Source of the DNA: an uncultured bacterium
GTDB taxonomy: Bacteria; Verrucomicrobiota; Kiritimatiellia; RFP12; UBA1067
Assembly (NCBI GenBank): GCA_902764415.1
Contig: CACWVU010000017.1
Span: 65,133 to 129,132 of the forward strand
Direction: 5' to 3'
DNA: 64,000 nucleotides
Below, one piece after another: positions 59,401 through 62,400 of the stretch. Every line of letters begins with the position of its first letter. The stretch's first letter is position 1. A program made the position numbers.

Positions 59401-62400
59401 GGGTTTTCGCCGGCAAGGCGCGCGGCAAGTCCGTCCGAACCGGGGCCGCCGAGGGAATGCGGGTCGAGCGGATCGGTGCCGTGGACAAACAGCTCGTCGT
59501 AGTCGGAAAGGCCGTCCTCGTCGGTGTCGGCGAGGTGCGGGTCGGTGCCGTGGACGCGGATCTCGTCGACGGTGGGGATGCCGTCGCCGTCGGGGTCGGG
59601 GTCGTCGAGGTCGGAAGGATAGAGCGGGTAGAAGGAGACGGAGCAGCGGGACTGCGGGACTGCGGAACCGGGGAACAGCGCGATGGCTGGATTGGCGGAA
59701 CTGCCGAAGACCGCCGAGGCGAAGAGGTTGGTGTCGGGGGCGGCGACGCGGGTCAGGTCGTAGCGGTAGACGAACGCCCCGGTGCCGGAAAGCTCGACCT
59801 GGAAGGAGACGGGGTTCGCGGCGGCGCGGCCGAGGAGCGCGTTTTCCCAGGTGAACTGGAGGGTGTTGGACGGCGTGAGGTGGTGCCAGAAGCGGCTCGG
59901 GCGGGCGGACTCGGGCAAGAGGCGCCAGTTGGCCTCGGGGACGACGCCCAGCGGCGCGTTCACTGGCAGGAACGAGGCGAGCGGCTGGCCGCAGACGGCG
60001 CCCGCGAAGGCGTCGACGCGCCCGGAGGAGTCGACGCAGAACGCGGAGGCGGAGTTGGTGCCGACCGGGAACGACCAGCCGCCGGCGTCGAACGCGATCC
60101 AGTCCGACGAGGCGCCGCGGATGCGCCAGCGCCGCGCCTCCTCCGCGCCCGCCGGCATCGCGAACGAGCAGGTCTCGTTAGTCCTCGCCAGCGAAACCGC
60201 GTATCCCCTTCCCACGTCCTCGGCGGTTATGCCGGCCTCGACGCCGCCGGACCGCAACAGCACGATTCCGCTGTTCTCCAGTTGGTTCGTGGGCTTGGTG
60301 GCGGCGTAGCGGGTCATGACAAGCACCGCCAGCAGCGAAACGACGACGTCCGGAAGCCTGTGCCTCCAGAATCGCCACCTCTGCCGCCATGTCTGCATAA
60401 ACCAAACTTGACTGCTCACACTTGCCTTACGCTGGTGGTGGCTGCGAGGCTGTGGTCACAGGGTCACTCCGTCCTTGAAGATGGCGATGCCGCGGTCGCC
60501 GGCGAGCTCGTTCTTCGCCGGCTCGCCGGAAGCCACCGCCACCACCTTGCGCGCGAAGGCGTCCACGTCGGGCGCCGACATCGCGTTCCAGTCGATCCAG
60601 TTCGGCTTCGCCGCGGCAAGCGCGTCGTTGGAGGCTATCTTCAGCGTCGGCACCACGCAGCCGAACGGAGTGCCGCGGCCGGTGGTGAAGAGGATGAGGT
60701 GCGCGCCGGCGGCCGCGAGCACGGTCGAGGCGACGAGGTCGTTGCCCGGACCGGTGACGAGGGTGAGCCCGCGGCGCCTCACCGCCTCGCCGTAGCCGAG
60801 CACGTCCTCAACCGGGGCGCTGCCGCCTTTCTGGACGCAGCCGAGCGACTTGTCCTCCAGCGTGGTGATGCCGCCGGCCTTGTTGCCGGGGCTGGGGTTC
60901 TCGTAGCAGGGCTGGTTATGCGCGGCATAGTAGCCCTTGAAGTCGTCGATCATCCTAACGCAGCGGTCGAACACCTCGCGTGTGCGGCAGCGCTTCATCA
61001 AGAGCGTCTCCGCGCCGAACATCTCCGGCACCTCGGTGAGCAGCGTCGAGCCGCCGCGCGCGGCGAGCCAGTCGGAGAAGCGGCCGACGAGCGGATTGGC
61101 GGTGAGGCCAGAGAAACCGTCCGACCCACCGCACTTGAGGCCGACGACAAGCTCCGAGACCGGCACCTCGACGCGCTCCTTCGGGCGCGCCGCATCGAGC
61201 TCCTTGACGAGCTCAAGCCCGCGCTCGTATTCGTCGCCCGGATCCTGCGCCCTCATGAAGCGGATGTTGAAACTCGTGGTTCGTGGTTCGTGGTTCGTGG
61301 TTCGGGCAAATGTTCCAGAGGCAGAGTCGAAAGACTTGGGGTCGAAGCCAAGGCGCGCCGCGAAGCTCTCCAGCGTGTTGTTCTCGCAGCCGAGCGACAC
61401 CACCAGCACGCCGCCGGCGTTGGGATGGCGGCAGAGCCGCGCGAGCAGGTTGGCGGTGGTCTCGTGGTCCTGCCCCAGCTGCGAGCAGCCGTAGGGATGG
61501 GTGAGCGCGACGCCGCCGCAGGACAGCGCGAGGCGCTCGGCGAGTCGGTTAACGCAGCCGACGAGCGGCACCACCCAGATGTCGTTGCGCACGCCGACGC
61601 GGCCGTCGGCATGGCGGTAGGCCTTCATCGTCGGCGGCTCGACCCGCTTGAGGTCGGCGAACTCCGGCTCGTAGCTGTACTCAAGGACCTCGCCGAGGTT
61701 GGTCGCGAGGTTGTCCACATGGACGTGCTCGCCCTTCGCGATCGCCTTGGTCGCGTGCCCGATGGGCATGCCGTACTTGACCACGTCCTCGCCCGCGGCG
61801 ATGTCGCGGAGCGCGTACTTGTGCCCGTCTTCGCGCACCTCGACGTTGTCGGATGGATGGATTACCATGTCGGTCAGAAGAACGTCATCTGCCCCGGACA
61901 CTCCGAGAGCCGCCGCCGGGGCTTGCGGACGGTCTTGGCGGCGTTTACGTCGATTTCGTTGGCCTCGAGGTTGCGCAGGATCTCGCCGGCGCGCGCCACC
62001 ACCTCGGGCGGCAGGCCGGCCATCGCGCCGACGTGGATGCCGAAGCTTTTCTCGGCGACGCCGGGGGCGATGCGGCGGAGGAAGACGATCCTGCCGCCCT
62101 CCTCCTTGACCTTGACGGTGAAGTTCTTCACCCCGCTGAAGGCGTCGGCGAGGTCGGCGAGCTCGTGGTAGTGGGTGGCGAAGAGAGTCTTCGCCTTGGC
62201 GCTCGCCTTGCCGTGCAGATACTCGGCCACGCTCCAGGCGATGGAGATGCCGTCGAAGGTGGAGGTGCCGCGGCCGATCTCGTCGAGCACAATGAGGCTC
62301 TTCGGGGTGGCGTTATTGAGGATGTTCGCCGTCTCCTGCATCTCGACGAGGAAGGTCGACCTGCCGCGCGCCAGGTCGTCGCCGGCGCCGATGCGGGTGA

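What the first reader, a model, noticed from the sequence alone, without database searches (positions are those of the whole stretch)
61272..61306. Seven-nucleotide tandem array inside uxaA: an in-frame insertion with frameshift (phase-variation) potential
About five GTTCGTG units lie inside the altronate-dehydratase-like gene. They are read as ARTTNHEPRTTSF in the linker between the SLGCENN block and the GLKCGGSDGFSG block. The same heptamer array occurs intergenically at 47164-47198 and, as 2 units, at 35227-35240, so it behaves as a dispersed simple-repeat element. Because the unit is 7 nt, gain or loss of a single unit by slipped-strand mispairing would frameshift the enzyme. Contingency-type switching of a hexuronate catabolic gene would be unusual.
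Basis: partly seen in the sequence, partly recalled or inferred. Interest (0 to 1): 0.6.

Follow-up and report, generated by a model that had tools for sequence, protein, structure and literature searches.

The report
Slippery 7-base repeat inside uxaA
A 7-base tandem repeat sits in frame in a floppy loop of a sugar-acid enzyme gene of an uncultured gut Kiritimatiellae bacterium; strains that lost one repeat unit, which breaks the gene, exist in nature, but the repeat looks like one of many unstable microsatellites in this genome rather than a purpose-built on/off switch.

Summary
Window 61274-61304 holds 4.4 perfect heptamer units, (ACGAACC)n on the coding strand. They form a 39-nt in-frame insertion (ARTTNHEPRTTSF) in the linker of a UxaA/altronate dehydratase gene, and array-free orthologues lack it. 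The array is one of 86 such arrays in this 2.6-Mb genome. About 28 lie in frame inside conserved genes, including four aminoacyl-tRNA synthetases, CarA, CarB and UvrA. About 33 lie just upstream of TGGTATAAT promoters. Two metagenome contigs carry the same array minus exactly one unit, which frameshifts an otherwise intact uxaA. One of them equals the commonest intact allele on both sides of the array. At the same codon, related lineages carry arrays with other units (CCCCGTT, an 8-nt CCCCAAAC type, TTCAACC-like), with in-frame three-unit steps and further frameshift alleles. All 17 full-length ACGAACC-type alleles checked (at least 45 contigs) keep the same length. Best reading: a slippage-prone microsatellite tolerated in a disordered loop that occasionally knocks out uxaA. 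Its presence in essential genes and its low copy number argue against a dedicated contingency switch. This scan had already noted the same repeat family elsewhere in this genome.

The parts
61274..61304 (-). Core heptamer array, (ACGAACC)4.4 on the coding strand (TCGTGGT on the + strand)
   Evidence: TRF: period 7, 4.4 copies, 100% matches, score 62; sequence read directly.
61269..61307 (-). 39-nt in-frame insertion GCC CGA ACC ACG AAC CAC GAA CCA CGA ACC ACG AGT TTC, encoding ARTTNHEPRTTSF (residues 188-200 of the 470-aa protein). Boundaries are inferred from alignment to orthologues without an array.
   Evidence: Alignment with congeneric orthologues: 'GTF[ARTTNHEPRTTSF]NIRF' against 'IGL[-]NIRF'. 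It contains the only segment with pLDDT below 50 (residues 195-198) in the AlphaFold2 model.
60456..61868 (-). uxaA (altronate dehydratase family), 470 aa plus stop. The longest ORF runs to a GTG at 61901, but all homologues start at MVIHPSDN (ATG at 61868), shortly after the mutS stop.
   Evidence: Pfam SAF, GD_AH_second and GD_AH_C. Homologues are 470 aa. PDB GarD 6U7L matches at E=2.5e-53. In relatives the mutS gene call ends 5 nt before the uxaA start.
47165..47198 (-). Sister array of the same family (4.9 units, imperfect). It fills the gap between two co-oriented genes and ends 1 nt before the ATG at 47163.
   Evidence: Identical in 9 conspecific contigs; one MAG record has NN plus extra bases inside it.
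35221..35239 (-). Sister array (2.7 units) immediately upstream of a TGGTATAAT extended -10 box of a minus-strand gene

Best explanation
The array is a lineage-specific heptanucleotide microsatellite of the genome-wide (ACGAACC)n family. It lies in frame in a permissive, disordered interdomain loop of a functional UxaA. It is transcribed and translated as a 13-residue hydrophilic loop, and no protein-level role is evident. Its unit is 7 nt, and loops of that size are poorly corrected by MutS-type mismatch repair (general knowledge, not tested here). Replication slippage therefore adds or removes whole units. Steps of three units stay in frame and change the loop length. Single-unit steps frameshift the gene and separate the SAF and second-domain half from the catalytic C-terminal domain. 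The site is thus a real mutational hot spot that intermittently produces uxaA-null variants, which selection mostly removes. This is a by-product of a genus-wide proliferation of 7-8-nt repeat families that colonise promoter-upstream regions and protein linkers, not a dedicated switch. Shown: the insertion, the repeat family, the natural -1-unit alleles, the three-unit in-frame steps, and the disordered-loop prediction. Inferred: slippage as the mechanism, escape from mismatch repair, and the absence of an adaptive role.
For: Insertion: the GCEN-to-CGGSD spacing is 86 aa here, against 73 in five congeners and 65-68 in the rest. Family: there are 86 arrays of 2-24 units. About 28 have strong same-frame coding signal on both flanks, 24 of them in sense orientation. 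Hosts include LeuRS, IleRS, GlnRS, UvrA, CarA, CarB, HisH, PrmA and an MFS transporter with 24 units. Slippage: L102 and L103 carry exactly 7 nt less. L102 is 190/190 and 270/270 aa identical to the intact allele P0124, which is seen on 15 contigs. L103 lies in a background about 16% diverged at the nucleotide level, so the two events are probably independent. At the same codon an 8-nt-unit array has alleles of 80 nt (intact), 104 nt (+3 units, intact) and 72 nt (-1 unit, frameshifted, on 2 contigs). The CCCCGTT-type arrays differ by 7-aa steps. Stability: 17 full-length alleles share the identical ARTTNHEPRTTSF, and the sister array is invariant in 9 contigs. Loop: the AF2 model has mean pLDDT 86, and its only segment below 50 lies inside the repeat peptide. 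The coding strand is unstructured (MFE -2.1 kcal/mol, z +1.15) and has no inverted partner. The pathway is present: UxaC and Mannitol_dh-family genes are in the genome.
Against: Frameshift alleles recur in several lineages (two clean one-unit losses and one frameshift that is not a clean unit step), with everything else intact. That is also what a reversible switch would produce. The four clean unit-loss contigs all come from ENA accessions in the ERZ272-273 range, possibly one project, and no reads were inspected. My gene calls outside the window come from a crude home-made caller. The slippage rate at 4.4 units is unknown.
Confidence: 0.72

Rival explanations
1. Evolved contingency locus: the array is kept in uxaA because reversible ON/OFF switching of hexuronate catabolism benefits a gut population facing fluctuating pectin supply.
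For: Clean -1-unit OFF alleles occur in two diverged backgrounds with both halves intact. Frameshift alleles also occur in two other array types at this codon. The site has kept a non-triplet array through several unit-family turnovers. Intragenic heptanucleotide repeats are proposed mediators of phase variation in H. influenzae (PMC2651432).
Against: There are only 4.4 units, whereas the proposed phase-variable heptamer tracts cited have 8-38 units. No +1 alleles and no in-frame variants appear among 17 full-length alleles. Identical arrays sit in essential genes. The 449-aa and 461-aa lineages do without any array. The sister array is invariant.
Confidence: 0.15
2. Copy-and-paste or recombinational seeding: arrays are delivered to permissive sites from other arrays of the family active in that genome (gene conversion, template switching or an unknown mobile mechanism), rather than growing in place from local sequence.
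For: The unit at the uxaA site matches the genome-wide family in this genome: ACGAACC, which is found in only 3 of 61 genus genomes. Other lineages carry CCCCGTT at the same codon, a family found in 30 of 61 genomes. The CarB linker is likewise occupied by different heptamer arrays in different species. L099 shows an ACGAACC-like remnant next to a TTCAACC-like array. Linker cassettes occur in mosaic alleles.
Against: No target-site duplication, terminal inverted repeat or hairpin is present at this array. No reverse transcriptase was detected in the 92%-complete genome. Some arrays (L004, L099, L101) look derived from the local TTC|AACATCC flank, which fits in-situ slippage. I could not check whether the genomes carrying L098 or L100 hold CCCCGTT arrays genome-wide.
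Confidence: 0.1
3. Functional element at protein or RNA level: the loop is a selected flexible linker, or the unstructured C/A-rich tract followed 21 nt later by an in-frame ATG (61256-61254) acts as an internal translation start, so that -1 alleles still yield a two-piece enzyme.
For: Elsewhere in the genome the same arrays abut start codons without a Shine-Dalgarno motif. In L102 the gene caller finds a GD_AH_C ORF starting at that ATG.
Against: The Met is Leu in many orthologues. Many lineages lack the peptide entirely. I know of no UxaA/GarD split at this linker (from memory). pLDDT is below 50.
Confidence: 0.04
4. Assembly or sequencing artefact.
For: The genome is a 74-contig MAG.
Against: The 31-nt array is far shorter than reads or assembly k-mers. 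The identical sequence is encoded by at least 45 independent contigs from NCBI and ENA. The frame is continuous through two Pfam domains.
Confidence: 0.01

Closest known systems
Long simple sequence repeats with 5-11-nt units in prokaryotes (Mrazek et al. 2007, as summarised in PMC4679880) and cyanobacterial STRR heptamers (from memory)
   Same: Tandem heptamers dispersed in many copies. The families are lineage-specific and sporadic. Slippage is the presumed mechanism. Heptamers are the most abundant unit class.
   Different: About a third of the arrays here lie in frame inside conserved enzymes, including essential ones. The cited work says units whose length is a multiple of three dominate in coding regions.
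TAACTGA direct repeats of marine Beggiatoaceae, cyanobacteria and Bacteroidetes (PMC4679880)
   Same: About 170 sets of 2-6 heptamers, mostly just upstream of start codons that lack a Shine-Dalgarno motif. A minority lie within ORFs. Function is unknown.
   Different: TAACTGA carries stop codons in the forward orientation, so its ORF-internal copies sit at ORF edges or in hypothetical proteins. ACGAACC has no stop in any of the six frames and sits mid-protein in linkers. Many copies here are fused to an extended -10 promoter.
GGGNATC quadruplex-forming heptamer repeats of Xanthomonas and Nostoc (PMC4692102)
   Same: Genome-wide heptamer arrays of 2-26 units, strand-biased relative to genes, and transcribed.
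   Different: [quoted passage not shown] Here unit numbers fall off monotonically (35, 16, 14, 9 arrays for 2, 3, 4, 5 units), and the tract has only GG runs.
Intragenic heptanucleotide repeats proposed as phase-variable in Haemophilus influenzae: (AATTTTG)14 in hmw1A and (AACAACC)8-13 in a TonB-dependent receptor gene (PMC2651432)
   Same: A non-triplet heptamer tract inside an ORF. Unit changes frameshift the gene, and frameshifted natural alleles are seen.
   Different: Those are long tracts in surface-protein genes of a host-adapted pathogen. This is a 4.4-unit tract in a cytoplasmic catabolic enzyme and belongs to a genome-wide family.
Rickettsia palindromic elements (in-frame repeat insertions in protein genes; from memory and earlier scan note e1-2856872)
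   Same: Selfish repeat DNA tolerated in frame in surface loops or linkers of conserved proteins.
   Different: RPEs are 100-150-nt palindromic units. This array is a plain tandem heptamer with no hairpin.

Membership tests
UxaA/GarD dehydratase family | SAF, GD_AH_second and GD_AH_C domains above Pfam cut-offs | tested here: met
   E = 5.8e-06, 1.9e-34 and 8.3e-91, all above the gathering scores. GarD 6U7L matches at E=2.5e-53.
UxaA/GarD dehydratase family | Pathway partners present (uronate isomerase, altronate/mannonate oxidoreductase) | tested here: met
   UxaC at C15:51977-53233 and two Mannitol_dh-family genes. Substrate specificity was not tested.
Dispersed heptanucleotide simple sequence repeats (LSSR/STRR-like) | Head-to-tail tandem copies of a 7-nt unit without spacers | tested here: met
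   TRF: period 7, 100% matches.
Dispersed heptanucleotide simple sequence repeats (LSSR/STRR-like) | Many dispersed arrays of the same unit, far above chance | tested here: met
   233 14-mer matches against 0 for the reversed control; 86 arrays.
Dispersed heptanucleotide simple sequence repeats (LSSR/STRR-like) | Unit-number polymorphism between strains | tested here: met
   -1-unit alleles. Steps of plus or minus 3 units in the other array types at this site. Most alleles of this array are invariant.
Dispersed heptanucleotide simple sequence repeats (LSSR/STRR-like) | Predominantly non-coding location | tested here: not met
   About 28 of 86 arrays lie in frame inside genes. This departs from the described families.
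SSR-mediated phase-variable contingency locus | Unit-number change alters expression or reading frame | tested here: met
   7 is not a multiple of 3; the -1 alleles split the ORF.
SSR-mediated phase-variable contingency locus | Both ON and OFF alleles in natural populations | tested here: met
   2 OFF contigs against at least 45 ON contigs for this array type.
SSR-mediated phase-variable contingency locus | High, reversible switching within a clonal population | not testable with these tools
Two JGI metagenome pattern scans found nothing.
SSR-mediated phase-variable contingency locus | Long tract (typically 8 or more units for units of 4-7 nt) | tested here: not met
   4.4 units, against 8-38 units in the H. 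influenzae heptamer tracts.
SSR-mediated phase-variable contingency locus | Repeat confined to genes under fluctuating selection | tested here: not met
   The same repeat lies in aminoacyl-tRNA synthetases, CarAB, UvrA and HisH.
Palindromic in-frame insertion elements (RPE-like) | Inverted-repeat or hairpin architecture | tested here: not met
   No inverted partner and no stable fold.

The most novel reading that the evidence does not exclude
This rumen/gut Kiritimatiellae genus may have an active, family-specific process that seeds 7-8-nt arrays into permissive sites, both promoter-upstream regions and protein linkers. Under this reading the same codon of UxaA, and the CarB interdomain linker, are recolonised by whichever repeat family is currently active in a genome. 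Non-triplet microsatellites would then be a general engine of linker evolution and of population-level gene on/off polymorphism, uxaA included, in a non-pathogen.
Probability: 0.2. Interest if true: 0.7.

Novelty: new variant of a known kind. Interest (0 to 1): 0.5.

Why it matters
Non-triplet microsatellites inside genes are textbook switches for surface antigens of pathogens. Here the same kind of tract sits in frame in a core metabolic enzyme and in essential housekeeping genes of a commensal gut lineage. Natural alleles show the single-unit slips that break uxaA. The same linker codon carries different repeat families in sister lineages. This makes uxaA a tractable natural case for two questions: how selfish simple repeats invade and reshape protein linkers, and whether metabolic capacities in gut bacteria are polymorphic through microsatellite frameshifts. 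It also warns annotators that split uxaA calls in these MAGs are repeat slips.

Tried and rejected
2. Two exact-pattern scans of JGI metagenome contigs for the array junctions found nothing.
3. uxaA was not found in G046 and G074, the other two genus genomes that carry ACGAACC arrays. They are incomplete, so no orthologous comparison within the same repeat family was possible.
4. I tried to test whether the genomes behind L098 and L099 carry their uxaA-type unit genome-wide. Those records are not held.
5. A templated, reverse-transcriptase-based origin: no RVT_1 match in the genome. This gives no support but is not conclusive at 92% completeness.
6. Hairpin or RPE-like element: rejected.
7. 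G-quadruplex-style preference for four units: rejected from the unit-number distribution.
8. Assembly artefact: rejected.
9. The L130 frameshift in the CCCCGTT-type array is not a clean unit step. It lies in a degenerate, C-run-rich tract, so I do not count it as unit slippage.

Full report
OBSERVATION

The + strand at 61269-61307 reads GAAACTCGTGGTTCGTGGTTCGTGGTTCGTGGTTCGGGC. Tandem Repeats Finder gives 61274-61304, period 7, 4.4 copies, 100% matches and score 62. On the minus strand the tract is (ACGAACC)n. It lies inside ORF 60456..61901, which matches Pfam SAF, GD_AH_second (residues 94-235) and GD_AH_C (248-479), the UxaA/GarD family. Homologues all start at MVIHPSDN, so the real gene is 60456-61868 and encodes 470 aa. 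In relatives the mutS gene call ends 5 nt before the uxaA start, and the same adjacency holds here. The tract is translated as ARTTNHEPRTTSF. The 14-mer with up to 1 mismatch occurs 7 times in the window against 0.05 expected.

IT IS AN INSERTION

Thirteen orthologues from related genomes were read at the DNA level. The spacing from GCEN to CGGSD is 86 aa here. It is 73 aa in five congeners at 76-83% identity and 65-68 aa in the remaining seven orthologues. The alignment is 'RLGFDPKSFDSASGTF[ARTTNHEPRTTSF]NIRF' against 'RLGLAPEDQDGSKIGL[-]NIRF', which amounts to 39 inserted nucleotides. An AlphaFold2 model built from 30 sequences has mean pLDDT 86 and pTM 0.88. Its only segment below pLDDT 50 is residues 195-198, inside the repeat peptide, just before strand 202-206 (NIRFM). 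The coding strand of the tract is unstructured and has no inverted partner. The genome also has UxaC and Mannitol_dh-family genes, so the hexuronate route is plausibly functional.

GENOME-WIDE CONTEXT

The window is C17:65133-129132 of a 2.6-Mb, 74-contig, 64% G+C MAG that is 92% complete. The closest named UxaA records are Kiritimatiellae or 'Verrucomicrobia' MAGs from ruminant guts.

The 14-mer occurs 233 times, against 0 for the reversed control. These matches merge into 86 arrays of 2-24 units. The unit has no T on one strand and no A on the other, so no frame contains a stop codon.

I used a home-made codon-usage gene caller (1908 genes, 87.6% coding). By that caller:
- 38 arrays fall inside ORFs.
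- About 28 of them have strongly positive same-frame coding scores on both flanks.
- Of those, 24 are in sense (ACGAACC) orientation and 4 are antisense. Each antisense array has a sense array in the same gene.

Pfam identifies the hosts as LeuRS, IleRS, GlnRS, UvrA, CarA, CarB (14 units in the interdomain linker), HisH, PrmA, a SIS-CBS protein and an MFS transporter (24 units in the central loop). MetRS and glutamate synthase are recognisable by eye.

A further 33 arrays have a TAYAAT box within 40 nt downstream, typically as ...ACGAAT-ATGGTATAAT. The genome has 387 TG[GC]TATAAT sites against about 6.5 expected, and 39 of them have at least two tandem units upstream. An ATG very often follows 6-10 nt after the box, which is a leaderless arrangement. 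Some arrays abut the ATG of an operon-internal gene, for example hisF (C7) and window 47163.

The genome also holds a second heptamer family, (CCAGCAR)n, and several 8-nt families.

Earlier notes of this scan describe the same family elsewhere in this genome: beside promoters, and in a protease gene, parC and uvrA. One follow-up concluded 'unstable heptamer microsatellites, not gene switches'.

NATURAL VARIATION AT THE uxaA ARRAY

A search of 5.8 billion proteins found many close relatives. Seventeen distinct full-length sequences with this array type all read ARTTNHEPRTTSF. They come from two backgrounds, clusters 1 and 2, and lie on at least 45 contigs by the listed counts.

Two cluster members are truncated: P0130 (215 aa) and P0135 (234 aa). 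Both read ...ARTTNHEPR|VSTSAS.... Their contigs show the cause:
- L102 reads TTTGCCCGAACCACGAACCACGAACCACGAGTTTCAAC.
- L103 reads TTTGCTCGAACC...
- The window has four full units where these have three, so exactly one 7-nt unit is missing.

Both halves of the gene are otherwise open in these contigs. L102 is 190/190 and 270/270 aa identical to P0124, the most often seen intact allele (15 contigs). L103 lies in a background about 16% diverged in nucleotide sequence. The two slips are therefore recent and probably independent.

Caveat: both contigs, and L104/L105 below, come from ENA accessions in the ERZ272-273 range, possibly one project. Two JGI pattern scans found nothing.

The intergenic sister array at 47165-47198 is identical in 9 conspecific contigs. 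One MAG record has NN and extra bases inside it.

THE SAME CODON IS A REPEAT HOT SPOT ACROSS LINEAGES

UxaA alleles that are 94-95% identical to this one outside the linker carry other arrays at exactly this position, between G[TSV]F and NIRF:
- (CCCCGTT/CCCCATT)5.6 in L098.
- A TTCAACC-like array next to an ACGAACC-like remnant in L099.
- (CCCCGTT)8.6 in L100.
- An 8-nt CCCCAAAC-type array in L101.

Other alleles, listed at about 93% identity over the whole protein (97% once the linker gap is excluded), have no array and a short linker, RLGDVSGFNIRF.

For the 8-nt type, the intact alleles are 80 nt and 104 nt long (+3 units). A 72-nt allele (-1 unit), found on two contigs, is frameshifted. 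CCCCGTT-type alleles differ by 7-aa steps. One of them is frameshifted inside a degenerate tract, but not by a clean unit step.

ACGAACC arrays occur in only 3 of 61 sampled genomes of the genus. CCCCRTT arrays occur in 30 of 61. The CarB linker likewise carries different heptamer arrays, some of them inverted pairs, in other species. UxaA alleles are mosaics, so linker cassettes also move by recombination.

INTERPRETATION

The array behaves as a slippage-prone microsatellite tolerated in a disordered loop. Three-unit steps survive as in-frame length variants. Single-unit steps make null alleles that are seen at low frequency, about 2 of roughly 47 contigs for this array type.

Several facts make a dedicated contingency switch the less likely reading (about 15%):
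- The tract is short.
- Full-length alleles are uniform in length.
- The sister array is invariant.
- Lineages without any array exist.
- The same repeat sits in essential genes.

A seeding mechanism that delivers the array family active in a genome to permissive sites remains possible (about 10-20%). No reverse transcriptase was found, and there is no sign of a transposon-like structure.

COMPARISON WITH KNOWN SYSTEMS

Dispersed heptamer repeats are known. The examples are the LSSR survey and TAACTGA repeats (PMC4679880), GGGNATC repeats (PMC4692102) and STRR (from memory). Intragenic heptamer tracts proposed as phase-variable, with frameshifted alleles, are reported in H. influenzae (PMC2651432). 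Three things differ here: the high share of in-frame copies inside conserved enzymes, the strong sense-strand bias, and the turnover of unit families at one codon. I therefore class this as a new variant of a known kind, of moderate interest.

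Noticed in passing
window 30226-30315, and 24 sites genome-wide (e.g. G000 C1:76243-76308, C40:47514-47579): There is a second heptamer family, (CCAGCAR)n, with 3-9 units. All copies are intergenic and share one layout: a GC hairpin, then the array, then a second hairpin (…AGAGGATG…CATCCTCT…). It looks like a distinct composite repeat element.
   Followed up: partly
G000 genome-wide (TRF): Several 8-nt tandem families are also dispersed: (CAACTTTT)n about 24 arrays, (CAACCTTT)n about 16, (AACCACCT/AACCACCC)n about 16, and (ACACAGAG)n about 7. 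One copy is at window 2560-2583.
   Followed up: no
G000 genome-wide; window 35190-35300: There are 387 TG[GC]TATAAT extended -10 boxes (about 6.5 expected), with consensus AATTATGGTATAATACGC and no conserved -35. An ATG lies 6-10 nt downstream in about half of them, so leaderless mRNAs seem to be the norm. Divergent copies flank window 35200-35300.
   Followed up: partly
window 61868-61876: The uxaA start codon (61868) lies shortly after the mutS stop (61874-61876), and the same adjacency is seen in relatives (L098, L099, L103). A hexuronate gene appears to be co-transcribed with mismatch repair.
   Followed up: no
L122-L124, L126 (CarB linker of G063, G046, G020, G074): The CarB interdomain linker carries different heptamer arrays in each species. 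Several are an array followed by its inverted copy, for example (GACTTCR)n … (CGAAGTC)n, which are hairpin-forming in-frame insertions.
   Followed up: partly
P0010, P0070, P0136 compared with P0124 and P0099: UxaA alleles are mosaics. The N-terminal 180 aa come from one lineage and are joined to the linker and C-terminus of another. This implies frequent homologous recombination between species-level lineages.
   Followed up: partly
G000 C6:10818-10852, C10:15736-15770, C37:8173-8186, C58:7660-7694: Arrays that end in ACGAAAC are each followed by the same palindrome-containing sequence, CAATGGGGACAGTCCCCAG…TTGAGGCGATA. This is a further repeated element. My ORF caller reads through it, probably wrongly.
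   Followed up: no
L100:604-677: An (ACTAACG)8.9 intergenic array lies on the same contig as a (CCCCGTT)8.6 array in uxaA. One genome can therefore hold several heptamer families.
   Followed up: no
L108 (GCA_002351765.1, contig DEHE01000159.1), upstream of position 1501: The counterpart of the window 47165-47198 array contains NN and about two extra units. This may reflect a length polymorphism or an unresolved assembly at the repeat.
   Followed up: no
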